Below, one piece after another: positions 5,977-52,390 of a stretch of 64,000 nucleotides of DNA. A program made the translations under genes and the position numbers. The DNA comes from Patescibacteria group bacterium. GTDB lineage: Bacteria > Patescibacteriota > Patescibacteriia > UBA1558 > GWA2-36-10. Under the pieces are notes generated by a model. The model searched no databases. It was not told the origin of the DNA and saw only the letters and a list, made by a program, of their open reading frames with translations. The stretch spans positions 4,155 to 68,154 of the forward strand of contig JBAZSG010000006.1 in NCBI GenBank assembly GCA_041662585.1. The letters are read 5' to 3'. Numbering within the stretch: the first letter of the stretch is position 1; each line of letters opens with the position of its first letter.

Positions 5977-5991
5977 TCGCGTAATAAACTC

Positions 5992-38251: not shown

Positions 38252-39017
38252 TATGTCATCAAGTGAACGTTTTGGTTATGAATGGGATAAATATTCGGGT
38301 ATCGATTCTAACTATGAAAAACAATTTAAAAATTGGATATATCCTCTTGAATCAGAGTTTTTTAAAGACAAAGTGATTTTAGATGCGGGCTGTGGTATGG
38401 GTAGAAATAGTTTTTGGCCACTCCAATGGGGAGCAAGAGAAGTTGTAGCCTTTGATTTTGATAGACGTTCGGTTGAATCAGCTAAGAGAAATTTAGAACA
38501 TTTTAATAATGTAGAAGTTTTTTATAAAAGTATTTATGATATTACTTGGGTGGATAAATTTGATATAGCTTTTAGTATTGGTGTGATACATCATTTGAAA
38601 GATCCAAAACAAGCTTTGCAAAATATGATTAAAGCTTTAAAATCAGATGGCACGCTTTTGATTTGGGTTTATAGTTATGAAGGTAATGAATGGATAGTAA
38701 AATTAGTTGATCCCATTAGAAAAAATATTACTTCAAAATTACCAGTTGGCTTAGTGCATTTTTTAAGTTATTTATGTTCTATACCTTTATATATTTTTAT
38801 AAAAATGTTTAAAAATACAAATGGTTATTTAAAACAAATTTCTAATTTTAAATTTTGGCATGTACATAGTATAGTTTTTGATCAATTGATACCGGACATA
38901 GCTAATTATTGGAAAAAGACCGAAGTAGAAGAATTATTTTTAAATTTAGGTTTAAAATCAGTGGATATTCATCAACCGCCAAATAAATCTGGTTGGATAA
39001 TTATTGGAAAAAAATAA
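38229..39017 (+). CDS. class I SAM-dependent methyltransferase
   Basis: 262 aa; 'VILDAGCGMGRNSF' motif I, 'FDIAFSIGVIHHL'. Confidence 0.65.
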   Translation: MNLFVRNNMSSSERFGYEWDKYSGIDSNYEKQFKNWIYPLESEFFKDKVILDAGCGMGRNSFWPLQWGAREVVAFDFDRRSVESAKRNLEHFNNVEVFYKSIYDITWVDKFDIAFSIGVIHHLKDPKQALQNMIKALKSDGTLLIWVYSYEGNEWIVKLVDPIRKNITSKLPVGLVHFLSYLCSIPLYIFIKMFKNTNGYLKQISNFKFWHVHSIVFDQLIPDIANYWKKTEVEELFLNLGLKSVDIHQPPNKSGWIIIGKK

Positions 39018-39043
39018 GCATTTTTGTCAAACAAGTAAACTCC

Positions 39044-39083
39044 GATCTGCGAGGTTGGTACAACCTCGCAGATCGCTTATTTT
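39044..39083 (+). terminator. rho-independent terminator (GATCTGCGAGGTTG-GTA-CAACCTCGCAGATC + TTATTTTAT)
   Basis: 14-bp perfect stem after the last methyltransferase; shares the 10-mer AACCTCGCAG, in inverted orientation, with the 17191..17228 terminator. Confidence 0.7.
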
Positions 39084-39158
39084 ATAGCTTTTTTCTTCTT
39101 TGTGATTATAGGTAAAATATGTTATAATTTATACACCAAAAAACAAAAATAAAGTATA

Positions 39159-40301
39159 GTGAAAGTATTTGAAACAAAAATTTATCTAAGATTTTTATCT
39201 TGGTTTATTGCCGTAGCATTTTTGCCATTAGCCGCTTTATTTTTATCAATATATCTTTTTAATTCAGCTTTACTACAATCAGTTTTAATAGAATCAAGAG
39301 ATACAGTATTATTTGCTATTTTTATTTCTCTGGCTTTAATTTTATTATTATCTTTGATAGCTACAAAACTATTATCAAAATCAATTATCAAGCCTATTAA
39401 AATATCGGTTTGGGAATTATCAAAAGTAGTAGGAGATTTATTTAAAACAGTACAAAATCTTTCAGCTATTAGCCAAAACAACGGAGAATTATCAGATTCT
39501 TTGTTGCGTAGTAGCCAAGCTCAAAAAACTGGCTTAAAAACAGGTAGTAAGGCGGTATTTGATATGGTAAATTCTTTGAATCAAGTTGCTCAAAAGACCA
39601 AATTGGCCGCTACCAAGACACGTAATGTGGATAAATTAGCTAGTGATAGTGGTGATAGATCAAAAGAAGCTTTGGATAGTTTGGTAGTGGTAAGACAATT
39701 ACTTACTGAAAATCAAAAACTTAGTCATGCTCTTGATGGCTATGCTGAAGATGTAAAAAATATATCTTCACGAGTAGTTATTTTGGCTGAAACAGCCAAA
39801 TTTCTGAGTCTCAATGTTTCTATTGAGGCTAGTAAGACTTCTTTTGGTAATGATTTTTCAGATTTGGTTTCCCAAATTAGAGAATTAAATATTATTAGTG
39901 AGCAAGCAGCCGAATCCATTGGCACTTTGGTTGCTAATATGCAACGACAAATAGAACAGTCTGGTGATTTTTCAAAACATCAAGCCCAAGAAACAGATAA
40001 AACAATCAAAGTGGTGAGTCAAAATATCCATTTTTTGTCTAAGATAGCAGCAAATATGCTGCAAATATCTCAAAATGTGCAAGCCATAGACCAAGAAACC
40101 CAAGAGACTAGACAGGACTCTGAAGACATTGGTACCATGATCAAAAAATTGGATACTGAAGCCAAGTCTTTGGTAGGTCATGTTGATACTGTAACACAAA
40201 CTATTAATCAGCAAGTAGCTATTATTAGGTCACTAAACAAATCTTCAACAGCGCTCAATGCAGTGACAACTACCCTTAATGATTTGGTAGGAGAAAAATA
40301 A
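39159..40301 (+). CDS. methyl-accepting chemotaxis protein-like transducer (two TM helices, no periplasmic sensor domain)
   Basis: 380 aa; two N-terminal TM helices ~15 aa apart, then a coiled-coil signalling domain (..SRVVILAETAKFLSLNVSIEASKT..). Confidence 0.65.
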   Translation: MKVFETKIYLRFLSWFIAVAFLPLAALFLSIYLFNSALLQSVLIESRDTVLFAIFISLALILLLSLIATKLLSKSIIKPIKISVWELSKVVGDLFKTVQNLSAISQNNGELSDSLLRSSQAQKTGLKTGSKAVFDMVNSLNQVAQKTKLAATKTRNVDKLASDSGDRSKEALDSLVVVRQLLTENQKLSHALDGYAEDVKNISSRVVILAETAKFLSLNVSIEASKTSFGNDFSDLVSQIRELNIISEQAAESIGTLVANMQRQIEQSGDFSKHQAQETDKTIKVVSQNIHFLSKIAANMLQISQNVQAIDQETQETRQDSEDIGTMIKKLDTEAKSLVGHVDTVTQTINQQVAIIRSLNKSSTALNAVTTTLNDLVGEK

Positions 40302-40303
40302 AT

Positions 40304-40726
40304 ATGACAGCTAGATCAGAAAAATTTATTTTATTTTATATAGGAGACGAGCAATATGCTTTGCCAGTTTTGATTGGTAATCAATTTATTGAATTTGAAA
40401 ATATGACTCTTATACCAAAAATTAGCCAAAAAATAAAAGGTCTTATTTATCACAATGGCAATATTGTTACTATCATTGATACCAAAGAGTTATTAAACAT
40501 AAAAATATTACAAAAAAATAAACAATTGATGTGTCTGACATTTGAAGCAGATGGATATTATTATGGTTTATTGGTCGATCAAGGAGGTGAAACTTTGGCA
40601 GTCAACAAGACTTTTAATGATAGACACAAAAAAGTTTTTAGCAAATATTTTAGGACAAAAGACAAGAAAAAAGTTTATATATTAGACATAGATGATATTT
40701 TATCTCAAATAAATATTTATGATTAG
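40304..40726 (+). CDS. cheW: CheW-like coupling protein
   Basis: 140 aa; 'FILFYIGDEQYALPVLIGNQFIEFENMTLIP..GLIYHNGNIVTIIDTKELLNI' CheW fold pattern. Confidence 0.7.
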   Translation: MTARSEKFILFYIGDEQYALPVLIGNQFIEFENMTLIPKISQKIKGLIYHNGNIVTIIDTKELLNIKILQKNKQLMCLTFEADGYYYGLLVDQGGETLAVNKTFNDRHKKVFSKYFRTKDKKKVYILDIDDILSQINIYD

Positions 40727-42263
40727 CACCAAATATAAAGATTTATATTTATCTACCACCAAAGAACAATTTAAAAAATTGTCTACTTTGTTGTTATATT
40801 TAGAAAAAAAACCAGCTAGTCAAAATTTGATTGAAAATATTTTTCGCCTTATTCATTCTATGAAGGGAGCAGCAGCTACTATGTCTTACAAAAAGACAGT
40901 CAATCTTTTGCATGCTATGGAATCGGTAGTAGATGCTGCCTACAATGGAGATTTGCGTATAAATCAAAAGATTTTGAATTCATTTTTTGATATTTTGGAT
41001 ATTTTGAAACAAAATTTTAATAGTATAGACAAACACAACAAAGAAATTGTACTCACTAAGCAAATAAAGCTTATCAAGACACTTTTGAATCAAAAAAATA
41101 CCAAAGATGCTAGTAAACAAAAAAAAGAAAAACATATACTCGGATCTTTGCCCAGCGTAGCTGAACTGACAGTCTCTACTGACAAGCTCGATGATATTGG
41201 TAATTCTTTGGATGATCTGCTTATCAATGCTATGAAAATAAAAAACAAAGCCAAAGGATCGGAGGATGTTGATTTTTTAAAAGTTTGTGTTGACAATGAC
41301 AAAATTTTGGCCAATTTGAGAAGACAATTGGAAAAAATAAGAATAGTACCACTCAAAGATGTCTTGTCATCACTACCATATTTAGTTAGAGAGATAGCTA
41401 GAAACGAAAACAAACAGGTAGAGATTGTTATCAAAGATCACAATATATCTTTGGACAAGGCTATTGTAGATGAGATTGTAGAAATATTAATACAATTACT
41501 CAAAAATGCAGTGGCACACGGTATAGCCAGTAAACCAGTCAAAGGTAAAATAATAGTTGATTTTTCTTTGGTGGGGGACAGAATGTATATATCGGTCGAG
41601 GATAATGGTCAAGGTATCAATTGGCAAGATATATTAGCTTTAGCTATTAAAAATAAAATAATATCTAGTCAAAAAGCAAAGACTATGACTATAGATCAGA
41701 TAAAAAAGTTTATTTTTCAAGCAGGTATTTCCAAGGGTAGAAATTTGAATACTGTTTCAGGTAGAGGTATTGGGCTCAGCTTGGTCAAAGCCAAAACAGA
41801 AGAACTAGGTGGTTCTATAGAAGTAATTTCCAAAATAAATAAAGGTACAAAATTTATTATTGACTTACCACAGCCGCTATCTGTTTTTAGGAGTATTATT
41901 TTCAACTTGTTGGGTTATGTTTTTGCTTTGCCACTTGATTTTATAGATAAAATAATAAATTTAGATGATGTAAAAAATCTAAATAAAACCAAGATTTTTA
42001 CTTATAAAAAAAATAAATATAAGCTAATTTCTTTGCTAAATATTTTTGATATAAAAAACTTTGAGCCTTTGTACAAGTATATAGCTTTGATAAATTATAA
42101 AGGATCAAAAGTTGCCTTACCAATTATCAGACAAGTGCAAGAAGATGAACTGATTATGAAAAAAGCTCCTTTGATTTTTAAAAATAATAAATACATAAAA
42201 GGCGTAGCTGTATCAGCTCAAGGTCAGGCAATATTAGTATTGGATATAAATAATTTAATTTAA
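40719..42263 (+). CDS. cheA: CheA-type histidine kinase (HPt, dimerisation, HATPase_c, CheW-like domains)
   Basis: 514 aa; HPt 'LIHSMKGAAATM'; HATPase 'DNGQGINW'; 'SGRGIGLSLVKAKTEELGGSIEVIS'; C-terminal CheW-like domain. Confidence 0.8.
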   Translation: MISTKYKDLYLSTTKEQFKKLSTLLLYLEKKPASQNLIENIFRLIHSMKGAAATMSYKKTVNLLHAMESVVDAAYNGDLRINQKILNSFFDILDILKQNFNSIDKHNKEIVLTKQIKLIKTLLNQKNTKDASKQKKEKHILGSLPSVAELTVSTDKLDDIGNSLDDLLINAMKIKNKAKGSEDVDFLKVCVDNDKILANLRRQLEKIRIVPLKDVLSSLPYLVREIARNENKQVEIVIKDHNISLDKAIVDEIVEILIQLLKNAVAHGIASKPVKGKIIVDFSLVGDRMYISVEDNGQGINWQDILALAIKNKIISSQKAKTMTIDQIKKFIFQAGISKGRNLNTVSGRGIGLSLVKAKTEELGGSIEVISKINKGTKFIIDLPQPLSVFRSIIFNLLGYVFALPLDFIDKIINLDDVKNLNKTKIFTYKKNKYKLISLLNIFDIKNFEPLYKYIALINYKGSKVALPIIRQVQEDELIMKKAPLIFKNNKYIKGVAVSAQGQAILVLDINNLI

Positions 42264-42267
42264 AAAT

Positions 42268-42795
42268 ATGGATATTAAAGCAAAAATTTTGTTTGTTGAT
42301 GATGATGCTTTTCTTCGTAAAGTCTACAAGTCAGAGCTTAGTGATCAGGGTTATGAAGTAATTTTGGCGGCTGATGGAGGAGAAGGCTTGGAAAAGGCTC
42401 AAATTTCTGATCCAGATTTGATTATTTTGGATATGATAATGCCTATAAAAAATGGTTTTGAAGTTTTGACTGAGTTACAAAACAATCCAAAAACAAAAAA
42501 TATTCCAGTCATCATATTATCAAACCTTGGTCAGAAAGACGATATCAAAAAAGGTTTGGATTTGGGAGCAGTAGATTATTTGATAAAAGATAATATAACT
42601 TTAAATACTATTGTGGAAAAGGTTAGACATTATTTGAATTCCAAAACAAAATCAAAGAGTGCCAAGATGAATGGTAGTCATCACCATCATCGCGAAACAG
42701 ACCTTAAAAAAGAAGATAAGGTGAATGGCAAAACCAGAGAGGATGGCCTGGGCCATAAACAATATTATAAATCCGAACCAAGTAGAGAAAAATAA
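42268..42795 (+). CDS. CheY-like response regulator receiver protein with His-rich C-terminal tail
   Basis: 175 aa; 'ILFVDDDAFLRKV', 'LIILDMIMP', 'IPVIILSN' receiver signature; tail 'NGSHHHHRETD'. Confidence 0.8.
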   Translation: MDIKAKILFVDDDAFLRKVYKSELSDQGYEVILAADGGEGLEKAQISDPDLIILDMIMPIKNGFEVLTELQNNPKTKNIPVIILSNLGQKDDIKKGLDLGAVDYLIKDNITLNTIVEKVRHYLNSKTKSKSAKMNGSHHHHRETDLKKEDKVNGKTREDGLGHKQYYKSEPSREK

Positions 42796-42797
42796 AT

Positions 42798-44483
42798 ATG
42801 AAAATTATAAGTGACGAGAAAATTTATAGAATTATTAGCAAGATTGGTTTGATTGATTTGGGGGTTTTGGATACCGCACTTCAAGCTGCCAAAGAACAAG
42901 AAGTAGATTTTGTTGATTTTTTGATAAAACAAGATCTTATAAAATCCAATGAGATTGGACAGTTGATAGCCAATGATTTACACATCAAATATATTGATTT
43001 GAGTAGAGAGCAAATTGATTCCAATGTACTAAATATTATTCCAGAAATAGTAGCTCGCAAACAAAATATTATTGCCTTTAAAAGAGACGAAGAAGGTTTG
43101 AAAATAGCCATGCTGGATCCATATAATTATGAGATGATCAAGATGGTTGAAAAAAAGGCTGGAGAAAAAGTATTGCCATATTTTTCTACAGAATATGATA
43201 TCAAAAATACTTTTGCTCTTTATAGAAAATCCATTCAACAAGAATATGCTACCAACATTCAAAAACATGCTATCAAAGCTCAGGGAGCCAATGTAGAATC
43301 AGTATCAGTAGTCAAATTGGTAGATGATATTTTTTCTTATGCTTATACCAATCATGCGTCTGATGTGCATATCGAGCCAGAGGACAAAGAAATAAAAATT
43401 CGTTTTAGGATAGATGGGATACTGTATGATGTATTGACACTGAGTAAAGGTATTTTGGAATTGATAGTAGCTAGAATAAAGATTTTGGCCAAATTGAGAA
43501 CTGACGAAAGTCGAGCTGCCCAAGATGGAAAAATCGTTACCAGAGTAGAGGCTGAAAAAGTAGATATTCGTGTATCCATTGTACCCATTACTCATGGTGA
43601 GAAAATAGTGCTGCGTCTTTTGTCTTCAAAAGGAAAACAATTTTCTTTGGAAGATTTGGGTATGACTGGTAGAGATTTAGAAATAGTGCAAAGAGCGGCC
43701 AAGCGTCCTTATGGTATGATTTTGTCCACTGGTCCTACTGGCTCTGGTAAAACAACTACTTTGTATGCCTTGATAAAGTTGCTTAACAATCGAAATATAA
43801 ACATTTGTACTATTGAAGATCCAGTAGAATATGATTTGGAAGGCATCAATCAAATCCAAGTAAACCCTCAAACCAATCTTACTTTTGCTCAAGGACTTAG
43901 ATCATTGCTTCGTCAAGATCCTGATATTATCATGGTTGGTGAAATCAGAGATGAAGAAACAGCTAGTATTGCTGTCAATTCTGCCATGACAGGACATCTG
44001 GTATTATCAACCCTTCATACCAATGACGCGGCTACATCTTTGCCCAGACTTTTGGATATGAAGATAGAGCCATTTTTGGTGGCTTCCACAGTCAATATAA
44101 TAATTGCTCAACGTCTACTTCGTAAAATTTGTATGAAATGTATAGTTTCTTATACATTAAAAGACAAAGAAATAGAACAACTCAAGTCAGAAATTGAGTT
44201 AAATAAATTTTTGAACATAGAAAAAATATCAGATGTTCGTTTTTATAAAGGCAAAGGTTGCAAATCCTGTAATAATAGTGGCTATATTGGTCGTATTGGT
44301 ATTTTTGAAGTTTTGGAAGTTACTGATGATATAAAAGAGTTGATTATGGCTAGAGCTGACAATGAACAAATAAAAAAGAAAGCCATGGGCAATGGCATGA
44401 AAACTATGTTTGAAGATGGTTTTGATAAAGCTATATCTGGTAAGACCACCTTGGACGAAATATTTAGAGTTACTAAACAATAA
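42798..44483 (+). CDS. pilB: type IV pilus assembly ATPase PilB (GspE family)
   Basis: 561 aa; N-terminal GSPII_E_N-like region, Walker A 'GPTGSGKTTTLYA', Asp/His boxes, C-terminal tetracysteine 'CMKC..CKSCNNSGYIGR'. Confidence 0.85.
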   Translation: MKIISDEKIYRIISKIGLIDLGVLDTALQAAKEQEVDFVDFLIKQDLIKSNEIGQLIANDLHIKYIDLSREQIDSNVLNIIPEIVARKQNIIAFKRDEEGLKIAMLDPYNYEMIKMVEKKAGEKVLPYFSTEYDIKNTFALYRKSIQQEYATNIQKHAIKAQGANVESVSVVKLVDDIFSYAYTNHASDVHIEPEDKEIKIRFRIDGILYDVLTLSKGILELIVARIKILAKLRTDESRAAQDGKIVTRVEAEKVDIRVSIVPITHGEKIVLRLLSSKGKQFSLEDLGMTGRDLEIVQRAAKRPYGMILSTGPTGSGKTTTLYALIKLLNNRNINICTIEDPVEYDLEGINQIQVNPQTNLTFAQGLRSLLRQDPDIIMVGEIRDEETASIAVNSAMTGHLVLSTLHTNDAATSLPRLLDMKIEPFLVASTVNIIIAQRLLRKICMKCIVSYTLKDKEIEQLKSEIELNKFLNIEKISDVRFYKGKGCKSCNNSGYIGRIGIFEVLEVTDDIKELIMARADNEQIKKKAMGNGMKTMFEDGFDKAISGKTTLDEIFRVTKQ

Positions 44484-44498
44484 AATAAATATAAATAT

Positions 44499-45716
44499 AT
44501 GTTGTTTGCTTATAAACTTTCAGATAATAAAAACAAGATAACTGCTGGTACTATTGATGCTCCAAATCGTCAGCAAGCTAGAAATCAATTGTTGCTTCGA
44601 GATGGTATTTTGATATCTTTGGAGCCAGCTGGCAGGTCAAATATACATCATAAAGTTGGTGGAAAACAATTGTTATTTGGTCGGATAAAACTTTTGGAAA
44701 AAGTAATGTTTGCCAAACATTTATCAGTGATGATCAAAGCTGGCATGTCTATTGACGGGTCTTTGGAAGCTTTAAAAGATAATGCTTCTCCTTTGATGAC
44801 TAGAGTTTTGACAGAAGTTTTATCAGATGTACGTAAAGGAAATGCTCTGTCTTCAGCTCTTAAAAAGCATCCTCGTGATTTTGATTTACTTTTTATAAAT
44901 ATGGTAGCGGCTGGTGAAAAAGGAGGCAACTTGGCCAAAAATTTGAATTTATTATCTGTTCAACAACAAAAATCATACGAATTACGCAAAAAAATAAAAG
45001 CAGCTGCCACTTATCCGACTGTCGTACTTTTGGCTATTGTAGCTTTGACAGCAGTAGTATCAAAATTTGTGTTACCAAAAATTGTCGGGTTTTTTACGAG
45101 TTTGAGTGTAGAGTTGCCTTTTAGTACTAGAATGTTGATAACTTCTGCTACTTTTTTTACTAATTATTGGATGTGGGTAGTACTCGCAACCATATTTTTG
45201 GTAATAACTTGGAATGTAATGGGCAAATTTCCTGTCAGTAGGCTGATACTTCACAAATTTATTATCAAGATACCTATTATTGGCAATTTGGTTATAAATA
45301 TGAATCTAGCTTTGTTTTGCAAAACTTTGGCTAGCTTGCTAAATAGTGGAATTACTATTGATCAAGCTTTGCAAATTGTATCTGAAACTATGACTAGTGA
45401 GGTTTATAAACAACAGACTATAAATATTTATCACAAAGTATTAAAAGGGAATTCTTTGTCGGACTCTATTTCCAACAACAAATATTTTCCTAGTATTGTG
45501 CCTCGTATGAGTATGGTTGGAGAGCAATCTGGAAATTTGAGTGAGGTACTTGAGCATTTGGCTGATTTTTATGAATTAGAGGTAGATAATACTACCAAAA
45601 ATCTTTCTACAATGCTGGAGCCAATACTTTTGGTAGCCATTGGTTTGGTAGTTGGTTTTGTGGCCATGTCTATTATCAATCCAATTTATGACTTAACCAG
45701 CAAGATAAGTCCATAA
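44499..45716 (+). CDS. pilC: type IV pilus inner-membrane platform protein PilC (GspF family)
   Basis: 405 aa; duplicated GspF domains with 3 TM segments; 'LLFINMVAAGEKGGNLAK', 'RMSMVGEQSGNLSEVLEHLADFYE'. Confidence 0.8.
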   Translation: MLFAYKLSDNKNKITAGTIDAPNRQQARNQLLLRDGILISLEPAGRSNIHHKVGGKQLLFGRIKLLEKVMFAKHLSVMIKAGMSIDGSLEALKDNASPLMTRVLTEVLSDVRKGNALSSALKKHPRDFDLLFINMVAAGEKGGNLAKNLNLLSVQQQKSYELRKKIKAAATYPTVVLLAIVALTAVVSKFVLPKIVGFFTSLSVELPFSTRMLITSATFFTNYWMWVVLATIFLVITWNVMGKFPVSRLILHKFIIKIPIIGNLVINMNLALFCKTLASLLNSGITIDQALQIVSETMTSEVYKQQTINIYHKVLKGNSLSDSISNNKYFPSIVPRMSMVGEQSGNLSEVLEHLADFYELEVDNTTKNLSTMLEPILLVAIGLVVGFVAMSIINPIYDLTSKISP

Positions 45717-45773
45717 CTACTCTCCAAAATACCCTTGTCAAAGTGGTTAGATGGATTATAAAAATTTGTACTA

Positions 45774-46862
45774 ATGAAGGAATATAAAATAAATCAAATA
45801 GGTTTTACACTAGTAGAAGTGTTGTTGGTAGTAACTATGTTTACTATTATTTTATCTTCCGTTATTTCTTTGACTACCAATCAGATTTTGGAAAGTGATT
45901 TAGCAGCCAAATCATTGGAAGTAACTTCTTTATTAGAAACAGCTAGGAACAATTCGGCGACTGGCTATCGAGGAGATGTTTGGAGTATCAAGGTGCTAGA
46001 TAGTGATGCTCTGTGTCAAAATAGTGGTGATTGTATATTACTTTTCAAAGGTAATAATTTTAGTACTAGAGACACTGCTTATGATCGTTTTGTCCAGTTT
46101 GACGTAGATGTTAGTGGTGTTTATGTCAACGTTGATCAGGAAAATGAGTTTTATTTTGCTTATTCATCGGGATGGTTGGCTACTACTTCAGCTGCATACT
46201 TAGATCAACAATATATAGTGTTAAATAGCAATTTTGGACAAAAAGAATCTATCTTGATTTATCCTACTGGTGTAATTTCTACTTTTGTTTGTGGGGAAGA
46301 TAAATTGTTTGATATAAATGGCAATGGCTATACAACCGTACAAATAGGCAATCAATGTTGGATGGCTGAAAACTTAAACACCGGTACTATGCTGGCTAGT
46401 GCCAGTATTGACCCAAGTGACGATGGTACTATACAAAAGTGGTGTTACAGCGATACTTCTAGTAATTGTAATAGCTATGGAGGACTTTATGATATAGTTG
46501 AACTTTTGGCTTATAATACTTCTGATAGTCAAGGTATTTGTCCAGCTGGTTGGCACATACCTACTGAAGCTGAAATAAATACTCTAGAGTCCAATTATTC
46601 CAACGGTGTTGACGAGGGATACAATTTAAGATTGGGTGGTATTTCAGGATTTAATTTGCCATTTAGTGGGCAAATAACCAAATCAACAAATGCTTATGCT
46701 GATATAACAACTTTATCTACTATCTGGTCTTCTTATTATACAGGCACGCAAGGTAAAGTTTATTATATTAATGATTCTGTAGACGCAGATGTACTAACAG
46801 CTCTTTTGACTGCTTCACCAAGTGATAAGGGTTATGCTGCTCGTTGTTTAAAAGATTATTAA
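45774..46862 (+). CDS. prepilin-type N-terminal domain protein fused to a Fibrobacter-succinogenes-major-paralogous (FISUMP, TIGR02145-like) domain
   Basis: 362 aa; class III signal 'GFTLVEVLLVVTMFTIIL'; C-terminal 'IGNQCWMAENLN...YGGLYDIVELL...CPAGWHIPTEAEINTLE' matches FISUMP hallmarks. Confidence 0.6.
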   Translation: MKEYKINQIGFTLVEVLLVVTMFTIILSSVISLTTNQILESDLAAKSLEVTSLLETARNNSATGYRGDVWSIKVLDSDALCQNSGDCILLFKGNNFSTRDTAYDRFVQFDVDVSGVYVNVDQENEFYFAYSSGWLATTSAAYLDQQYIVLNSNFGQKESILIYPTGVISTFVCGEDKLFDINGNGYTTVQIGNQCWMAENLNTGTMLASASIDPSDDGTIQKWCYSDTSSNCNSYGGLYDIVELLAYNTSDSQGICPAGWHIPTEAEINTLESNYSNGVDEGYNLRLGGISGFNLPFSGQITKSTNAYADITTLSTIWSSYYTGTQGKVYYINDSVDADVLTALLTASPSDKGYAARCLKDY

Positions 46863-46863
46863 A

Positions 46864-47805
46864 ATGCTAGCTATAAAACACAAAATTAATGGTTTTTCTT
46901 TGGTAGAGGTAATCATAGCCTTGGGAGTTTTTTCTATCTTGGCAGCTGGAGTTTTTAATATTGTGACTAGTTCTTACAAAAATTTTTATGGCGTCGGAGA
47001 TAAACAAGTGATTAGCGAATTTGCTCAAGAAGGTATGGAAATAGTTCGGGCTATTCGTGATAATTCTTGGCAAGATATAGAAAATGTTTCTGGTGCTGGC
47101 AATCAGGGAGTGAGCAAGGCTAGTGCTGGTTATTGGCAGTTTAGTGGTACTAGTAATACTTTGGGTGTTTTGACTAGGACCATAGCAATAAGTGATGTAA
47201 GTCGTGATAGTAACAATGAAATAGTTTTATCAGGTGGAACCAATGATCCAAGTACCAAAAAAGTAGTGGTCACAGTGACAGGAACTGGCATAAGTGACTA
47301 TGTATTGACTGTTTATTTGACTGATTGGAACAATAAGACTTGGTTACAAACTAACTGGAGCGGAGTAGGCGAAAGAGAGTATTGGTCAGATAGTACTATG
47401 GCCTCATCAACCTATACCAATGGTGATAATAATATTTCTACTAGCACCACAGGCGCATTGACCCTTTTTTGGAATGGCACTACATTTGATTCTCCGGGGT
47501 ATTTATATTCTTCTATATATGATATAAACTCAGATGATAAAGAGCCCAAAAGTATTAGTGTAGAACAAGTTGTTCCTAGTCCTTGTAATTTGGATATTAC
47601 ACTTGAAGTTAGTGATGATATTAGTTTTGCAGTAGCTAATATTAGTAGTCAAATTTTTAGTGATGATAGTACTAGTTATTATACTAGTTCTACGCCAGCT
47701 AGTTTAAATGGTAAAAGATATATGAGATATAGAGTTGACATGGCTAGCTGTAGTAGTGGCGCTAGTAGTCCAACACTTTATTCAGTAAAGATTAATTATA
47801 GATGA
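46864..47805 (+). CDS. prepilin-type (pseudopilin/minor pilin-like) protein
   Basis: 313 aa; 'NGFSLVEVIIALGVFSILAAGVF' prepilin cleavage/methylation motif. Confidence 0.6.
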   Translation: MLAIKHKINGFSLVEVIIALGVFSILAAGVFNIVTSSYKNFYGVGDKQVISEFAQEGMEIVRAIRDNSWQDIENVSGAGNQGVSKASAGYWQFSGTSNTLGVLTRTIAISDVSRDSNNEIVLSGGTNDPSTKKVVVTVTGTGISDYVLTVYLTDWNNKTWLQTNWSGVGEREYWSDSTMASSTYTNGDNNISTSTTGALTLFWNGTTFDSPGYLYSSIYDINSDDKEPKSISVEQVVPSPCNLDITLEVSDDISFAVANISSQIFSDDSTSYYTSSTPASLNGKRYMRYRVDMASCSSGASSPTLYSVKINYR

Positions 47806-49067
47806 TGAATATAAATAAAAATAAAAAAGGCTTTTCTTTAATAGAGGCTGTAATTTATCTAGCGATAGTTGCTATTTTGCTTACAGCAGTAGTGAGTTTG
47901 CATCTGACTTTGGGGGGTACTTCCAATAAACTTGCTAGTAATATTTTGGCTTCTAGGAATAGGCGCGTGGCTTTGTCTAGTGTTGATTATTTGATTAAAA
48001 ATGCTGATGGAATGCTCAGAGACATCAATGGAGATTGTTCAGATTTTGATGCTACACCACCAGTACTAGCCTTATATTTTGCTGACGATACATATTTGCC
48101 TGGTACTTGTGTAGAAAACGGTGGAGGAGTCAGGCTATCAATAGATGATAAAAATGTAAGTCTGACTTGTTATCCAAATATGAGTGGCAATGGTCATTTT
48201 CAAAATTGCGAAACATGGCGTTATCCCGCTACCAACATTTATTATCTTTCTTCTCCCAATGTAGCTGTATTAAATACCTCATTGAGCTTTAGCACTTCTA
48301 CGGCCACTTCTACCGCCAATAATTTTTTGGCAGTCAGTACTCAGCTTAGTGTGGGCACACATACTAATAATCAAGTCAATTTGAGTGCTACTTCTACCGC
48401 CACTTCTACCACTATTGTCAGAAATGAGCAGGCCAGTGGGCTTATGACTTGGTGGAAGTTTGAGGCGAGCCCTGGTTTTGGTGTAGATACACAACAAAAT
48501 ATTAATATATCCTGTAATACCCCCAGTACTGTTAGTGGTTTGGTAAGTAGCAGTACGCAAGCAGCAGATTTTAACGGTAGTTCAGATACTTGTTATAATA
48601 TTAGTGCTAGGCGTATAAGATTTAATAATAGTTTTTCTTTGGCTACTTGGATGAATGCTGATGCCAGAGCAGTGGACACGCCTATTATGCTTTTTAGTAA
48701 TCTTACTTCTTTGGGTTATTCATTTTATACTGACGATGGTTATCTTAGTTTACGAGTTTGTGATAGTGATGCTTGTGAAGAATACAATTCTACTTTTCAA
48801 ATGGCCAATGATACTACTTATCATGTGACAGCTACTTATGATTTAGAAGATGATGAAGTGATATTGTATGTTTATCAAAAAGGAGTAGGTGGTAAAGCTA
48901 CCACTACGGTAAATTCATTAAAAACTTTGGTAAACCACGCTTCTAACTTTGTAATAGCCGGAGATTTGACAACATACTTTGATGGGACACTAGATGATAT
49001 TCGGACTTATAATAGAGTATTGAGTCCAGAAGAGATCTGGGCTATACAATCTCAAGGAGAGATTTAG
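47802..49067 (+). CDS. prepilin-type protein with C-terminal LamG/concanavalin-A-like lectin domain
   Basis: 421 aa; 'KGFSLIEAVIYLAIVAILLTAVV'; C-terminal 'GTLDDIRTYNRVLSPEEIWAI' typical of bacterial LamG-domain proteins. Confidence 0.6.
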   Translation: MMNINKNKKGFSLIEAVIYLAIVAILLTAVVSLHLTLGGTSNKLASNILASRNRRVALSSVDYLIKNADGMLRDINGDCSDFDATPPVLALYFADDTYLPGTCVENGGGVRLSIDDKNVSLTCYPNMSGNGHFQNCETWRYPATNIYYLSSPNVAVLNTSLSFSTSTATSTANNFLAVSTQLSVGTHTNNQVNLSATSTATSTTIVRNEQASGLMTWWKFEASPGFGVDTQQNINISCNTPSTVSGLVSSSTQAADFNGSSDTCYNISARRIRFNNSFSLATWMNADARAVDTPIMLFSNLTSLGYSFYTDDGYLSLRVCDSDACEEYNSTFQMANDTTYHVTATYDLEDDEVILYVYQKGVGGKATTTVNSLKTLVNHASNFVIAGDLTTYFDGTLDDIRTYNRVLSPEEIWAIQSQGEI

Positions 49068-49098
49068 TTTATTTACTATATTTTGCTATAATATATCT

Positions 49099-49929
49099 AT
49101 GCTAGATAAAATAAAAAAAGCAAATCAGGGAGCTATAGCGTTATTGTTAGTAATTATGATTACAGCTTTGACTATAGTTTCAGCCGCCGTAATATCTATG
49201 ACCAATATTTCAGACTTGATGTCTTCTTTTTATTTTTCTCAATCAGAAGAAGCTGATGTAGAAATGGATGCTTGTCTAGAAGATGCTTTGTGGCGTCTAG
49301 CTTCTAGCACTGAGATTTCAGGTACATATTATCTCAATACTGTTGGTACTAGTTGTTATTATCAAATAGCTGATAGTATAGAGGCTGGTTTAAAAACTGT
49401 TACTTCTACGGCTAGTACTACTTCAGATGTTGGTTATTGGGTGGATGCAGTGATTGCTCAAATCAATGTTTCTACCACACCGATTAGTATTTATTCTTAC
49501 AAAAATTTTAATATGTCCTATGCGCCTATTGTGGTCTCTGAAGGTGGTGCAGCTGTCTGTGGTGATGGCACCATAACTAGTCCAGAAGTCTGTGATGAGC
49601 TCAATAATACAATTACTGAATATTGCGGAGATGGCAATACAGATGTAGGCAAATGCAATGCTGATTGTAGTGCAGTCGTGCCAGATGAGACTTGCGATGA
49701 TGGTAATACAACTACCGAGATGTGTGGCGATGGAACACAACAAAATGGCACTTATTGTAATGCTAATTGTACCGTAGAAACAGTCTTGGCCGAAACTTGT
49801 GACTATACACCAGGATCTTGCAATGCTTCTAGCTGTTGTGATAGCGTTGGCTTGGGTTGTGCCACTGGAAAACGTGGATTTCTAGCCTGTAGTGAAACTT
49901 GTACAACTTGTCTTTTAAATTGTTTATAA
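49099..49929 (+). CDS. membrane-anchored protein with Cys-rich 'CGDG...CDDGN' repeats (Myxococcus cysteine-rich repeat/DUF4215-like); possible pilus-associated adhesin
   Basis: 276 aa; N-terminal hydrophobic segment (GAIALLLVIMITALTIVSAAVI); repeats 'CGDGTITSPEVCDELNN', 'CGDGNTDVGKCNADCS', 'CDDGNTTTEMCGDGTQQNGTYCNANC'. Confidence 0.45.
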   Translation: MLDKIKKANQGAIALLLVIMITALTIVSAAVISMTNISDLMSSFYFSQSEEADVEMDACLEDALWRLASSTEISGTYYLNTVGTSCYYQIADSIEAGLKTVTSTASTTSDVGYWVDAVIAQINVSTTPISIYSYKNFNMSYAPIVVSEGGAAVCGDGTITSPEVCDELNNTITEYCGDGNTDVGKCNADCSAVVPDETCDDGNTTTEMCGDGTQQNGTYCNANCTVETVLAETCDYTPGSCNASSCCDSVGLGCATGKRGFLACSETCTTCLLNCL

Positions 49930-49945
49930 TTTAATTTTAGGGCTT

Positions 49946-51697
49946 ATGGGCAAAAATATAATAGGTATCGATATTTCAGATTTTTCTATTGAAGCCGTAG
50001 CTTTGGAAAAAGATAGACATAGTTTTAAGTTAGAATCTTATGCTCGTTTTAGACTTTCTCCAGAAATAGTTGAAGATGGTCAGATACTAGATAAAGAAAA
50101 ATTGAAAAGTGCTATTTTAAAGCTGTTTAAAAGTGCCAAGCCGGTTGTTTTTGACAAATCACGCAAGGTATTTTTATCTATTCCAGAGTCACAGACTTTT
50201 TCCAAAATATTTTCTGTACCAAAAAATATCAAAAATAAAGAATTGGAAACAGTAGTATTTAATAAAGCAGAAGAATTGATTCCAGAGTCTATTGACAAAT
50301 TGACGGCTATCATAAAAGTCTTGGCTGAAACAGATAAAGATAAGCAAGTTTTTTATACAGCCGTAAGCACAGAAATATTACAGAGTTTTGTAAGTGTTTT
50401 TAATGAATTGGATATAGAAGTAGTAGGTATTACTACTGAAGCCAATAGTTCTTTTGCTGGTATCAAAGAAAGTAAAGACAAAAAAAATACATTGGTTTTG
50501 GATCTTGGCGCCAGGACTACTATTGCTTCTATTTTTACCAAACATGGTTTATATTCAAATATAAATATTGCTATTGGTGGAGATAATATCACCAAGGCTA
50601 TTGCCAAAAAATTAAAGATTACTTATAAACAAGCCGAGGACAAAAAAGTAAAAATTGGTTTGACAGCTGATGAATATGGAGAAATCATGCTCATCGCCCA
50701 AGGTCAATTACAGCCACTGGTAGATGAATTAAAAGTATTTATAGAATATTGGCAAAAATCTAGTGGTAATACTATAGAACAAGTTGTTTTGATAGGGGGC
50801 TTATCTCAAATGAAAGATATTGATAAATATTTTGGAGAAGACTTAAACATAGCCACTCAAATTGGTCAGCCGTTTATTGATACAGACTCTTTATGGAAAG
50901 GATTGAATTCTAGTAAATACATAAATGCTTTGGGATTAGCTAGATTGGCTCAGCAAGGCACGGATATCAATTTTTTTGATAAGATGCCAAAAGCCAAAAA
51001 ACAAAAAAATACAAATAATAATATAAATAACAATAACAATAATCAATATATAGAAAATCAAAATAATATCAAAACAAAGTGGTTGGCCAGTTTTAAAAAT
51101 AAATATGTTTTATTTGGATTAGGCATTATTTTTTTGGCAGCAGCTTTGTTTTTGTTTAAAAATAAAATTCCTATTTTAAAAGACTGGGTAGCACTACCTA
51201 CTTGGGAAGAAAAAATATATGTAGCGATAGATAATCCCAATGGAATAAGCAATTTTATCCCAGGTGAATATTATGATTTATTACTTTACAAAACATATAC
51301 TACTTCTACAGATGAGACATTGCCAGACGATTATGTTGAAAATTTTTCAAACAATTTGATTGCCCTAGAAAAGGAAGCAAACATAAAAGTATTGCCAAAA
51401 GTCGCTGAGTCTTATACACCAGAAGGTTATTATGTGATTCCCCAAATAATATCTTATGAGAGTACAGATATAGTTCCTTTGGAAGAAAATTATAAAGTAG
51501 GGGATGTTTTAGAAGCGGATATCAATTATCGATTTATGATGTTTTCATATCAATCTTTGAAAGATTGGTTGATAAATAAAGATCCAAAAGTAGCTGATAA
51601 ACTAGGTAGTTTTGATTTTGAAATCATTAATTATACACTTGATAGTGAAGGAGCAAATTTTAACATCTTGGTACTGATTAATAAAAAATCAGACTAA
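49946..51697 (+). CDS. pilM: PilM-like actin-fold pilus assembly protein fused via a poly-Asn linker to a PilN-like single-TM segment
   Basis: 583 aa; N-terminal 'IIGIDISDFSIEAVAL' PilM/FtsA-like; low-complexity 'NTNNNINNNNNNQYIENQNN' then TM 'YVLFGLGIIFLAAALFLF'. Confidence 0.55.
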   Translation: MGKNIIGIDISDFSIEAVALEKDRHSFKLESYARFRLSPEIVEDGQILDKEKLKSAILKLFKSAKPVVFDKSRKVFLSIPESQTFSKIFSVPKNIKNKELETVVFNKAEELIPESIDKLTAIIKVLAETDKDKQVFYTAVSTEILQSFVSVFNELDIEVVGITTEANSSFAGIKESKDKKNTLVLDLGARTTIASIFTKHGLYSNINIAIGGDNITKAIAKKLKITYKQAEDKKVKIGLTADEYGEIMLIAQGQLQPLVDELKVFIEYWQKSSGNTIEQVVLIGGLSQMKDIDKYFGEDLNIATQIGQPFIDTDSLWKGLNSSKYINALGLARLAQQGTDINFFDKMPKAKKQKNTNNNINNNNNNQYIENQNNIKTKWLASFKNKYVLFGLGIIFLAAALFLFKNKIPILKDWVALPTWEEKIYVAIDNPNGISNFIPGEYYDLLLYKTYTTSTDETLPDDYVENFSNNLIALEKEANIKVLPKVAESYTPEGYYVIPQIISYESTDIVPLEENYKVGDVLEADINYRFMMFSYQSLKDWLINKDPKVADKLGSFDFEIINYTLDSEGANFNILVLINKKSD

Positions 51698-51743
51698 AAA
51701 TAGTACTAAAAACATATGCACAGAGTTTAATTTGGGAGGAGTA

Positions 51744-51772
51744 TTGGCAATTATTGGTAGATTTGATATAAT
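51744..51772 (+). promoter_or_regulatory. sigma-70-like promoter for the major pilin gene (-35 TTGGCA, 17-bp spacer, extended -10 TGATATAAT)
   Basis: Read directly ~50 bp upstream of the pilin ATG. Confidence 0.45.
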
Positions 51773-51821
51773 ATAGACATCTTTAATTCAATATAAAATA
51801 ATTTAACTAATCTTATAAAGT

Positions 51822-52331
51822 ATGAAAATTAAACAAAATTTTAGATTACACTCAAGACAAGCAGGATTTACGCTTATTGAGTTAATTATCGTAATCGCTA
51901 TCATCGCCTTATTAGCAGCAGCTACTTTTGTGGCTGTCAATCCAGCCAAGCGTATTGGTGATGCCAATAATGCTCAGCGTTGGGCTGATATTACAGCTAT
52001 TGCCGATGCTTGGAATACTTATGTAGCTGATAATAGTGGTAGTAATCCAACTACATCAGCTGATTGTATTACAGCTAATACTACTTGTATGATTGCCAAT
52101 TATGCTGGTACTGATACTGACTATGCTTGTGGAGCTTCAACCACCGCTGCTCTTATTTGGCTTGATCCATTGATTACCAGTGGTTATTTAGCAAATATAC
52201 CAGCTGACCCAAAATCTACTACAGCCGCAGCCACATCTACTGGTTATTATATGCTTAAAGATGCTAATGGTGCTTTGACGGTTGGTGCTTGTGAAACTTA
52301 TAATAGTGCTACAATAAAAGTTCAAAGATAG
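51822..52331 (+). CDS. type IV pilin (major pilin-like), class III signal peptide
   Basis: 169 aa; 'SRQAGFTLIELIIVIAIIALLAAATFVAV' (G|FTLIEL cleavage/methylation site), C-terminal Cys pairs. Confidence 0.75.
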   Translation: MKIKQNFRLHSRQAGFTLIELIIVIAIIALLAAATFVAVNPAKRIGDANNAQRWADITAIADAWNTYVADNSGSNPTTSADCITANTTCMIANYAGTDTDYACGASTTAALIWLDPLITSGYLANIPADPKSTTAAATSTGYYMLKDANGALTVGACETYNSATIKVQR

Positions 52332-52350
52332 TTTTTAAATCAAAATTTAT

Positions 52351-52390
52351 AAAACTTGATTCTACTAAAATAGGGTCAAGTTTTTATATT
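52351..52390 (+). terminator. terminator hairpin after the pilin gene (AAAACTTGA..TCAAGTTTT + T-run)
   Basis: 9-bp stem, 16-nt loop, followed by TTTTTATATTTT. Confidence 0.45.

What the first reader, a model, noticed from the sequence alone, without database searches (positions are those of the whole stretch)
39159..45716. Minimal chemosensory module (sensor-less MCP, CheW, CheA, CheY-like with His-rich tail) co-operonic with pilB-pilC
The MCP has two TM helices separated by only ~15 residues, so it has no ligand-binding ectodomain. There is no CheB or CheR. The CheY-like protein ends in a poly-His tail (HHHH).

The module runs straight into the type IV pilus ATPase and platform genes. It reads as a Pil-Chp-like system dedicated to pilus control (twitching or attachment) rather than flagellar chemotaxis. 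The window has no flagellar genes.
Basis: partly seen in the sequence, partly recalled or inferred. Interest (0 to 1): 0.5.

Follow-up and report, generated by a model that had tools for sequence, protein, structure and literature searches.

The report
Stripped-down chemosensory module driving CPR pili
An ultra-small Patescibacteria (CPR) bacterium carries a minimal chemotaxis-type signalling pathway built into its type IV pilus operon; about 30 related species share the layout, in a group usually said to lack chemotaxis.

Summary
The six genes are real and sit at the stated coordinates: MCP, CheW, CheA, a single-domain response regulator (RR), PilB and PilC. They open a 12-gene unit (39100-52384) bounded by terminator-like hairpins. 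It continues through three minor pilins, an unknown membrane protein, a PilM fusion and the major pilin.

The window is 64 kb of a 702-kb Patescibacteria contig. The same gene order recurs in about 30 species-level genomes (Komeilibacteria/Parcubacteria), down to 40% CheA identity.

- **MCP:** two TM helices, a 14-residue non-conserved outer loop, no HAMP, and one continuous helix from TM2 to the tip. The bundle has 44H-like length, the tip is one residue shorter than usual, and no methylation motif is conserved.
- **CheA:** P1-P3-P4-P5 without P2; all catalytic motifs are invariant.
- **RR:** a complete receiver. The HHHH run is internal (residues 138-141 of 175) and not conserved.
- **Absent:** no CheB/R/C/D/Z, flagellar, PilT or PilD gene in the window.

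It fails the architectural hallmarks of the Pil-Chp (Tfp) class. It looks like a reduced F1/Dif-like system recruited independently. Relatives include a sensor-bearing MCP form and receptor-less Hpt-kinase forms that keep RR-PilB.

Control of the pilus motor by phosphorylated RR is inferred, not shown. I found no description of it in the literature.

The parts
39043..39075 (+). Terminator-like hairpin (15-bp stem, 9 GC pairs, then a T-rich tail). It closes the upstream glycan/methyltransferase genes.
39100..39128 (+). Sigma-70-like promoter candidate (TTGTGA-17-TATAAT with an extended TG), 31 nt upstream of the MCP start.
   Evidence: This is a consensus match only.
39159..40301 (+). MCP, 380 aa. 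N-in topology with TM1 at about 12-34, a 14-aa outer loop and TM2 at about 49-71. One continuous helix runs from TM2 to the tip (turn at residues 227-229). Bundle of 44H-like length, no HAMP.
40304..40726 (+). CheW coupling protein, 140 aa.
40719..42263 (+). CheA, 514 aa. P1 (Hpt, H46 in HSMKG), a roughly 40-aa linker with no P2, then P3, P4 and P5.
42268..42795 (+). Single-domain response regulator, 175 aa. Receiver residues D11-13, D55, S85, Y104 and K107. A conserved YLNSKTxSKxAK motif follows the receiver. The tail is variable and holds an internal HHHH (138-141).
42798..44483 (+). PilB/GspE-family pilus assembly ATPase, 561 aa (MshEN + T2SSE).
44499..45716 (+). PilC platform protein, 405 aa (two T2SSF domains).
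45774..46862 (+). Minor pilin (N_methyl) with a Fib_succ_major domain.
46864..47805 (+). Minor pilin (N_methyl), 313 aa. Orthologues reach 1,000 aa or more.
47802..49067 (+). Minor pilin (N_methyl) with a Laminin_G_3 / ConA-like lectin domain.
49099..49929 (+). Conserved operon member of unknown family. It has an N-terminal hydrophobic helix and a Cys-rich C-terminus (CGDG repeats).
49946..51697 (+). PilM (actin-like ATPase fold) fused to a TM segment and an extracytoplasmic C-terminal region, 583 aa.
51744..51772 (+). Strong promoter-like site (TTGGCA-17-TATAAT with TG) ahead of the pilin gene.
   Evidence: This is a consensus match only.
51822..52331 (+). Major pilin candidate, 169 aa (N_methyl; G/FTLIE prepilin motif).
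52351..52384 (+). Terminator-like hairpin (14-bp stem then a T-run) that ends the unit.

Best explanation
This is a self-contained, minimal chemosensory phosphorelay that is part of the type IV pilus operon of a Komeilibacteria-like Patescibacteria lineage. It regulates the pilus machine.

Shown:
- One terminator-bounded unit encodes MCP-CheW-CheA-RR-PilB-PilC, minor pilins, PilM and the pilin.
- The MCP has no ligand-binding ectodomain and no HAMP. TM2 runs directly into a bundle of 44H-like length.
- The catalytic residues of CheA and the RR are intact.
- The arrangement is conserved across about 30 species.

Inferred:
- MCP, CheW and CheA form a membrane signalling complex.
- Input arrives through the conserved N-terminal peptide and TM helices, as an intramembrane or protein-protein signal. 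Candidates are the state of the pilus machine, the membrane pilin pool, or envelope/host contact. It does not arrive through an external ligand.
- CheA phosphorylates the single RR directly from P1.
- Phosphorylated RR has no output domain, so it binds the PilB/PilC/PilM motor and switches pilus extension on or off. That would control attachment, twitching or uptake.
- There is no methylation-based adaptation. The signal ends by RR autodephosphorylation.
For: Operon:
- Terminator 39043-39075, promoter-like site 39100-39128 and terminator 52351-52384.
- Gaps of 57 nt or less up to the pilin gene; an 8-nt CheW/CheA overlap; a 2-nt RR-PilB gap.

Synteny:
- Identical order in L003-L034 and L091, with CheA identity down to 40%.
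- The CheW/CheA 8-nt overlap also recurs in those loci.

MCP:
- The only Pfam domain is MCPsignal.
- Across the 50 aligned full-length family members there are no indels between residues 60 and 378, apart from one column at the tip.
- The loop is the least conserved region (0.35). The N-terminal 11 residues are the most conserved (0.82).
- AlphaFold gives a continuous helix 47-226, a turn at 227-229, then helix 230-377.
- The best structural matches are B. subtilis McpB/YvaQ models and T. maritima 2CH7, aligned over about 305 columns. Tsr aligns over about 235.
- Only 6 of the 31 locus-derived MCPs match the methylation consensus, and the window MCP does not.

CheA:
- H46 and the N, G1, F and G2 box residues are invariant in 21 sequences.
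- P3-P5 align with T. maritima CheA 1B3Q.

RR:
- D11-13, D55, S85, Y104 and K107 are conserved.
- Together with PilB it is the most conserved protein of the operon: 57-83% and 67-88% identity to the window, against 34-74% for the MCP.

Natural reduced forms:
- L040 and L092 lost MCP, CheW, P3 and P5. They keep an Hpt-HATPase kinase, the RR, PilB and PilC.
- They nest inside a clade whose other members have the full module.

Precedent: CheY-like and PATAN response regulators bind the PilB1 motor in Synechocystis (bioRxiv 10.1101/2021.06.11.447907; PMC11181946).
Against: - No experiment or interaction prediction links the RR to PilB, PilC or PilM. Adjacency is the only evidence.
- The RR receiver is closest to generic stand-alone or OmpR-type receivers (T. 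maritima RR468 at 86 bits; T. maritima CheY at 54 bits). It has Asp where most receivers have the Pro that follows the conserved Lys.
- A conserved surface-polysaccharide locus (Bac_transf, Wzy_C) always lies just upstream, so it could be the regulated target instead.
- Deeper-branching RRs carry zinc-ribbon tails of unknown partner.
- No retraction ATPase (PilT) was seen, so a motility output is unproven.
- Only about 10% of the contig was readable, so other Che proteins elsewhere cannot be excluded.
Confidence: 0.6

Rival explanations
1. Dif-like wiring. The pilus is the input rather than the output. The sensor-less MCP reads pilus activity, and the RR regulates production of the adjacent surface polysaccharide or glycan, or another non-pilus target.
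For: - Dif-like clusters use 44H MCPs with two TM segments and periplasmic loops of only 3-10 aa.
- Such MCPs are thought to sense through partner proteins.
- M. xanthus Dif is described as CheR-independent, and type IV pili act upstream of it in EPS regulation (PMC2577667).
- A Bac_transf/Wzy_C/Polysacc_synt locus lies immediately upstream of the che-pil operon in every locus long enough to show it.
Against: - No CheC or CheD, which Dif-like clusters carry.
- The che genes lie inside the pil transcription unit, and the glycan genes are separated from them by a strong terminator or are divergent.
- Lineages that lost the receptor keep RR next to PilB.
- The two readings can coexist as a feedback loop.
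Confidence: 0.15
2. The same phosphorelay controls a DNA- or nutrient-uptake (competence-type) pilus rather than attachment or twitching.
For: - No PilT retraction ATPase in the window or within 10 kb of any homologous locus.
- CPR pili have been proposed to serve uptake from hosts (PMC7137472).
Against: - PilB scores far higher on the T4aP PilB and GspE models (522-529 bits) than on ComGA (255 bits).
- The minor pilins carry lectin-like LamG and Fib_succ_major domains, which suggests adhesion.
- In cultivated Saccharibacteria, type IV pili drive host binding and twitching (PMC11623550, PMC9894109).
- PilT may lie elsewhere in the genome.
Confidence: 0.15
3. This is the core of an ordinary flagellar chemotaxis pathway whose other parts (CheR, CheB, flagellar genes) lie elsewhere. 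The pil adjacency is incidental.
For: Only about 73 kb of the 702-kb contig could be inspected.
Against: - The che-pil fusion is conserved in about 30 species.
- Most family MCPs, including the window's, lack the methylation consensus.
- Patescibacteria are reported to lack flagellar and chemotaxis genes (PMC7137472, PMC11974145).
- The nearest non-CPR CheAs sit in clusters with CheB, CheC/X and CheD, or next to CheR. None of these accompanies the CPR CheA.
Confidence: 0.03
4. The module is a decaying relic with no current function.
For: Reduced forms exist in relatives, with loss of MCP, CheW, P3 and P5.
Against: - All catalytic residues are invariant.
- MCP length is fixed at about 380 aa, with no internal indels in the 50 aligned members of a 79-cluster family.
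- There are no frameshifts.
Confidence: 0.04

Closest known systems
Pil-Chp system of Pseudomonas aeruginosa (Tfp class: PilG, PilH, PilI, PilJ, PilK, ChpA, ChpB)
   Same: A CheA/CheW/MCP/CheY-type pathway dedicated to type IV pili rather than flagella. CheA lacks P2.
   Different: ChpA has many Hpt domains and a C-terminal receiver (PMC10782961). This CheA has one Hpt and no receiver. From my own knowledge, Pil-Chp also has a 40H MCP with a periplasmic domain, two response regulators, and CheR/CheB homologues. Here there is one RR, no CheR or CheB, and an ectodomain-less MCP of 44H-like length. The che genes are also fused into the pilB-pilC operon.
Myxococcus Dif and Geobacter Dif-like clusters
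   Same: A 44H MCP with two TM helices and a very short outer loop, plus CheW, CheA and CheY. M. xanthus Dif is CheR-independent. There is a functional link to type IV pili and a nearby exopolysaccharide theme (PMC2577667).
   Different: Dif-like clusters include CheC and CheD and are not embedded in a pil operon. In Dif the pili act upstream and the output is EPS. The Myxococcus CheA loci picked up by my pattern scan are a different cluster (CheR-MCP(HAMP)-CheY-CheW-CheA-REC), not Dif.
Cyanobacterial Tax1/Pix phototaxis system
   Same: A chemotaxis-like kinase phosphorylates response regulators that act on the type IV pilus motor PilB1 (10.1101/2021.06.11.447907; PMC11181946).
   Different: Pix uses a photoreceptor MCP (PixJ), a hybrid CheA (PixL), and two antagonistic regulators, one of them PATAN-REC. 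Here the MCP has no sensor domain and there is one plain REC.
F1-type chemosensory systems (Bacillus, Thermotoga, archaea)
   Same: The best CheA model hit is the haloarchaeal CheA equivalog (259 bits, against 161 for the E. coli type). The MCP matches 44H receptors (B. subtilis McpB, T. maritima Tm1143) in length and fold. The nearest non-CPR CheAs sit with CheB, CheC/X and CheD. From my own knowledge, in archaea this class drives a type IV filament machine, the archaellum.
   Different: No CheB, CheR, CheC, CheD or CheV. CheA has no P2. The output is a bacterial type IV pilus. The class could not be assigned with MiST models.
Haloarchaeal Htr transducers (my own knowledge)
   Same: MCPs with two TM helices and little or no external domain, which receive their signal through TM contacts with a partner membrane protein.
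   Different: No rhodopsin or other obvious partner gene lies next to the MCP here. The candidate partners are the pilus proteins themselves.

Membership tests
Core chemosensory pathway (MCP-CheW-CheA-CheY) | CheA with Hpt phospho-His, a dimerisation domain, an ATPase with N/G1/F/G2 boxes, and a CheW-like P5. | tested here: met
   Pfam Hpt, HATPase_c and CheW hits. P3-P5 align with T. maritima CheA 1B3Q. H46, N263, D295/G297/G299, F333 and G348/G350/G352 are invariant.
Core chemosensory pathway (MCP-CheW-CheA-CheY) | MCP signalling hairpin with a conserved tip. | tested here: met
   MCPsignal at 41 bits against a 34.6-bit cut-off. The motif LSLNxSIEAxK..F..LVxQIRxLN is conserved. One deviation: the tip is one residue shorter than in ordinary MCPs.
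Core chemosensory pathway (MCP-CheW-CheA-CheY) | Stand-alone receiver with the acidic pocket, phospho-Asp, Ser/Thr and Lys. | tested here: met
   D11-13, D55, S85, Y104 and K107 are conserved in 28 orthologues. By sequence it is closer to generic receivers than to CheY proper.
Tfp class (Pil-Chp type) chemosensory system | CheA with multiple Hpt domains and a C-terminal receiver. | tested here: not met
   One Hpt and no REC in the 514-aa CheA. The feature is taken from PMC10782961.
Tfp class (Pil-Chp type) chemosensory system | PilJ-type MCP (40H, periplasmic sensor, HAMP). This feature is from my own knowledge. | tested here: not met
   14-aa loop, no HAMP, and arms of about 155 and 148-152 aa. 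That matches the length of the 44H receptor Tm1143.
Tfp class (Pil-Chp type) chemosensory system | CheR/CheB homologues (PilK, ChpB) and two response regulators (PilG, PilH) in the cluster. This feature is from my own knowledge. | tested here: not met
   None in the window or within 10 kb in the related loci with gene calls. There is a single RR.
Tfp class (Pil-Chp type) chemosensory system | Placement of the CheA P3-P5 core in the Tfp clade by MiST class models. | not testable with these tools
   No class HMMs are available. NCBIfam lists only the haloarchaeal and E. coli-type CheA models.
F1 class chemosensory system | Accessory CheC/CheD (and CheB/CheR) together with 44H receptors. | tested here: inconclusive
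   Receptor length and the best CheA model agree. All accessory proteins are missing locally. The nearest outgroup CheAs do have them.
Dif-like chemosensory cluster | 44H MCP with two TM helices and a tiny outer loop, plus CheW, CheA, CheY, CheC and CheD. | tested here: not met
   The MCP features are met. CheC and CheD are absent. The definition is taken from PMC2577667.
Type IVa-like pilus machine | PilB ATPase, PilC platform, PilM, and prepilins with the N-methylation motif. | tested here: met
Type IVa-like pilus machine | Retraction ATPase PilT and prepilin peptidase PilD. | tested here: inconclusive
   Absent from the 64-kb window and from 9 kb upstream of it. The rest of the genome was not readable.

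The most novel reading that the evidence does not exclude
The ectodomain-less MCP may be an intramembrane sensor of the pilus machine itself. It could read the membrane pilin pool, or PilC/PilM activity, through its conserved N-terminal peptide and TM helices. With CheA and the RR acting back on PilB, this would close a contact-sensing feedback loop. An ultra-small episymbiont could then decide when to extend or hold pili on a host. That would be signal-processing behaviour in a phylum thought to lack chemosensing. It would also be the smallest natural chemosensory array: no adaptation enzymes, no P2, no HAMP, no sensor domain. Relatives provide a natural series of forms: a sensor-bearing MCP, a sensor-less MCP, and a receptor-less kinase.
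Probability: 0.25. Interest if true: 0.75.

Novelty: new variant of a known kind. Interest (0 to 1): 0.55.

Why it matters
Patescibacteria are described as lacking chemotaxis and motility machinery (PMC7137472, PMC11974145). Their type IV pili are the best-supported tool for finding and binding hosts (PMC11623550, PMC9894109).

A conserved chemosensory phosphorelay wired into the pilus operon would mean some of these tiny cells regulate pilus activity in response to a signal. That would give a concrete handle on how episymbionts recognise or respond to hosts.

The system is also a naturally minimised chemosensory pathway of four proteins with no adaptation enzymes. Its MCP has an unusually rigid length and a shortened tip. 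Relatives have lost the receptor altogether. This makes it useful for asking what the irreducible core of array signalling is. It also shows that chemosensory control of type IV pili arose more than once.

Tried and rejected
- **HAMP domain:** no Pfam hit, no room in the sequence, and AlphaFold shows an unbroken helix from TM2 to the tip. Rejected.
- **Methylation sites:** the consensus [ASTG][ASTG]xx[EQ][EQ]xx[ASTG][ASTG] matches only 6 of 31 family members and not the window MCP. There is no C-terminal CheR-tethering pentapeptide.
- **Upstream methyltransferases (37679-39017) as CheR substitutes:** they are generic class-I methyltransferases. They are not conserved next to the MCP in other loci, and a terminator separates them from it. 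Rejected.
- **His-rich tail as a functional feature:** not conserved. Rejected.
- **Myxococcus CheA loci from the pattern scan as Dif homologues:** the cluster is CheR-MCP(HAMP)-CheY-CheW-CheA-REC, not Dif. These hits come from the short search patterns and carry no phylogenetic weight.
- **Reading the rest of the contig for PilT, CheR or flagellar genes:** only 9 kb upstream could be fetched, and it holds a ribosomal protein operon, SecY, Adk and Map. The look-up at the downstream end found nothing on record.
- **Literature:** seven searches for a CPR/Patescibacteria che-pil system found no description. Follow-up reads of papers from those searches found none either.
- **Rfam:** only two tRNAs in the window.
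- **Recent horizontal transfer:** GC content of the che genes (0.30-0.33) matches their neighbours, so there is no compositional sign of it.
Full report
**Source and setting.** The window is low in GC (0.26-0.39). The CheA protein is found verbatim on a 702,058-bp contig (ena:ERZ27249449:k141_305749) and is labelled 'MAG: Patescibacteria group bacterium' by NCBI. By coordinate arithmetic the window covers about 516,219-580,218 of that contig. Around the finding lie a large surface-glycan locus (glycosyltransferases, Wzy_C/TPR proteins, Bac_transf, two asparagine synthases, many class-I methyltransferases), a MacAB-like ABC exporter, and an hrcA-grpE-hsp20-dnaK-dnaJ operon.

**Observation.** All six genes are at the stated coordinates and pass Pfam gathering thresholds. 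Together with six more pilus genes they form one unit.
- A 15-bp-stem hairpin with a T-rich tail (39043-39075) follows the upstream methyltransferase.
- A promoter-like site (39100-39128) precedes the GTG start of the MCP.
- Gene gaps are 57 nt or less as far as PilM. CheW and CheA overlap by 8 nt, and RR and PilB are 2 nt apart.
- The pilin has its own strong promoter-like site (51744-51772).
- A second hairpin with a T-run (52351-52384) ends the unit.
- Every window ORF of at least 100 aa without a longer overlapping ORF on the other strand was scanned with Pfam. None is CheB, CheR, CheC/D/X/Z/V, flagellar, PilT or PilD.
- The one inaccurate detail is the 'poly-His end'. HHHH is residues 138-141 of 175.

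**Conservation.**
- CheA has 57 close relatives (40-100% identity, 509-522 aa), all from Patescibacteria, Parcubacteria or Komeilibacteria sources. Scores then drop sharply, from about 400 to 231 bits, where ordinary CheAs begin.
- A scan of GTDB species representatives found about 30 genomes with this CheA.
- In every locus long enough, my ORF/BLAST survey gives the same order: Bac_transf on the opposite strand, then MCP, CheW, CheA, RR, PilB, PilC, three minor pilins, the unknown protein, PilM and the pilin (gene calls).
- RR and PilB are the most conserved proteins, at 57-83% and 67-88% identity to the window. MCP, CheW and CheA are at 34-74%, 28-63% and 40-73%.
- Thirty species is a small fraction of known Patescibacteria. 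This is a lower bound, because the scan used short patterns.

**The MCP.**
- The family has 79 clusters. Most members are exactly 380 aa.
- In a 50-sequence alignment there is no indel between residues 60 and 378, apart from one column at the hairpin tip.
- The 14-residue outer loop is the least conserved part (0.35). The N-terminal 11 residues (MKxxETKIYLRF) are the most conserved (0.82).
- Charge distribution in the sequence indicates an N-in, C-in topology.
- AlphaFold (pLDDT 75.8) gives helix 5-34, a short loop helix, and then one unbroken helix 47-226 from TM2 to the tip. A turn at 227-229 is followed by helix 230-377. There is therefore no HAMP, in agreement with Pfam.
- The arms are about 155 and 148-152 residues, roughly 22 heptads each.
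- The C-arm aligns without gaps to T. maritima Tm1143 (2CH7), and the tip sits at the same distance from both ends.
- Foldseek ranks B. subtilis McpB/YvaQ models and 2CH7 (about 305 aligned columns) above Tsr (about 235).
- That Tm1143 and McpB are 44H receptors is my own knowledge. On that basis this is a bundle of 44H-like length.
- In an exhaustive profile search, ordinary MCPs align end to end over about 304 profile positions and are consistently one residue longer.
- The Asn-to-Arg spacing across the tip is 22 here. It is 23 in the canonical tip consensus, as I recall it for E. coli Tsr. The tip has lost one residue.
- The methylation consensus is absent from the window MCP and from 25 of the 31 locus-derived family members.

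**CheW, CheA and the RR.**
- CheA has P1 with H46 in the HSMKG motif, then a linker of about 40 residues that is too short for a P2 domain.
- P3-P5 align with the T. maritima CheA structure. The N, G1, F and G2 box residues are invariant in 21 sequences.
- Lack of P2 is common: more than half of all CheAs lack it (PMC10782961).
- The best curated model is the haloarchaeal CheA (259 bits, against 161 for the E. coli type).
- The nearest non-CPR CheAs (26-31% identity) lie in clusters with CheB, CheC/CheX, CheD and CheY, or next to CheR. The CPR module therefore looks like a stripped-down F1/Dif-like system. This is an inference.
- The RR has the full receiver signature (D11-13, D55, S85, Y104, K107). 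It has Asp in place of the usual Pro after the Lys.
- A conserved YLNSKTxSKxAK motif follows helix 5. After it the tail varies, giving total lengths of 126-224 aa.
- Deeper-branching members end in a zinc-ribbon (CPxCG...FCPxCGY; Pfam zinc-ribbon families).
- By sequence the receiver is closest to T. maritima RR468 (86 bits) rather than CheY (54 bits).

**Natural variants.**
- L093 carries a 634-aa MCP with an ectodomain of about 260 aa and a tip of normal length. It is followed by CheW, CheA, a zinc-ribbon RR and PilB. MCPs of 613-634 aa are the next-best hits after the 380-aa family.
- L040 and L092 have no MCP or CheW. A 297-311-aa Hpt + HATPase kinase without P3 or P5 precedes the zinc-ribbon RR, PilB and PilC.
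- In a PilB neighbour-joining tree, L040 and L092 nest among lineages with the full module, so this is a secondary loss.
- The invariant core is therefore kinase, then RR, next to PilB.

**Mechanism.** The steps shown are the operon structure, the domain anatomy, the intact catalytic residues, and the conservation with its variants. The remaining steps are inferred:
- An MCP/CheW/CheA complex forms at the membrane.
- Input comes through the TM helices and N-terminal peptide, because the external loop is short and unconserved and there is no HAMP or cytoplasmic sensor domain.
- P1 transfers phosphate directly to the RR.
- Phosphorylated RR has no output domain, so it acts by binding the pilus motor.
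- The signal is terminated by autodephosphorylation, and there is no methylation-based adaptation.

Precedents for response regulators acting on PilB come from Synechocystis (10.1101/2021.06.11.447907; PMC11181946). A precedent for short-loop MCPs that sense through partner proteins and are linked to pili comes from DifA (PMC2577667). The minor pilins carry LamG/ConA-like and Fib_succ_major domains. That fits an adhesive pilus, as shown for Saccharibacteria (PMC11623550, PMC9894109).

**Comparison and novelty.**
- In function this is like Pil-Chp or the cyanobacterial Tax systems. By architecture it is not a Tfp-class member: single Hpt, no CheA receiver, one RR, no CheR/CheB, a 44H-like MCP and no ectodomain.
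- The closest architectural match is the Dif-like type, but CheC and CheD are missing and the genes sit inside the pil operon.
- Seven literature searches found no description of a che-pil operon in CPR bacteria. Follow-up reads of papers from those searches found none either.
- Surveys state that the group lacks chemotaxis (PMC7137472, PMC11974145).
- I rate it a new variant of a known kind, of moderate interest (0.55).

**Main gap.** The rest of the genome (PilT, PilD, any CheR/CheB or flagellar genes) could not be inspected, and the RR's target is unproven.

Noticed in passing
L040:6362-7297 and L092:8103-8996: Receptor-less relatives. A 297-311-aa Hpt + HATPase kinase (no P3, no P5) directly precedes the RR, PilB and PilC, with no MCP or CheW. 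By the PilB tree this is a secondary loss inside a clade that otherwise has the full module.
   Followed up: yes
L093:5133-7037: A sister form with a 634-aa MCP. It has an ectodomain of about 260 aa with no Pfam match between the two TM helices. The cytoplasmic bundle is the same length, there is no HAMP hit, and the tip has normal length.
   Followed up: partly
L007, L027, L033, L040, L091-L093 (RR genes): In deeper-branching members the RR tail ends in a zinc-ribbon (CPxCG...FCPxCGY; PF13240/PF12773/PF13248). The partner is unknown. The window RR instead has a low-complexity tail with an internal HHHH.
   Followed up: partly
window 42268-42795 (residues 107-108): The conserved receiver Lys is followed by Asp (K-D) in all 28 orthologues, rather than the usual Lys-Pro. 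A conserved YLNSKTxSKxAK motif follows helix 5.
   Followed up: no
window 39840-39860 (MCP residues about 222-233): The MCP hairpin tip is one residue shorter than in ordinary MCPs (Asn-to-Arg spacing of 22 rather than 23). Nearly the whole 380-aa family shares this. The 634-aa relative (L093) and most of the 613-634-aa sister MCPs do not.
   Followed up: yes
window 45774-49929: The minor pilins carry Fib_succ_major and Laminin_G_3 (lectin-like) domains. The next gene (49099-49929) encodes a conserved protein with no family match, an N-terminal hydrophobic helix and a Cys-rich CGDG-repeat C-terminus. The second minor pilin ranges from about 305 to about 1,230 aa among relatives.
   Followed up: partly
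window 49946-51697: PilM is fused to a TM segment and a C-terminal extracytoplasmic region of about 180 aa. An Asn-rich run (NTNNNINNNNNNQ) lies between them.
   Followed up: no
window 5395-11623: An ECF-type sigma factor (5395-5976), a DUF5667 protein (5992-7428) and a 1,255-aa ORF with no Pfam match (7856-11623).
   Followed up: no
window 12452-17176 and 33199-34560: Two large Wzy_C + TPR proteins and a Bac_transf gene. Bac_transf on the opposite strand, and often Wzy_C genes, lie next to the che-pil operon in almost all related loci. This suggests a conserved glycan-pilus neighbourhood.
   Followed up: partly
window 22982-24829 and 35798-37663: Two asparagine-synthase-like (GATase + Asn_synthase) paralogues and at least six class-I methyltransferases within the glycan locus.
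   Followed up: no
L019, L020, L022, L026-L031 (record titles): Several TPA MAGs that carry this CPR-type operon are titled 'uncultured Gammaproteobacteria bacterium'. This is probably a mislabelled taxonomy in those submissions.
   Followed up: no
L044:5890-12511: The Myxococcus loci picked up by the CheA pattern scan encode CheR-MCP(HAMP)-CheY-CheW-CheA-REC. That is a different chemosensory cluster and is not related to the CPR module beyond general CheA homology.
   Followed up: yes
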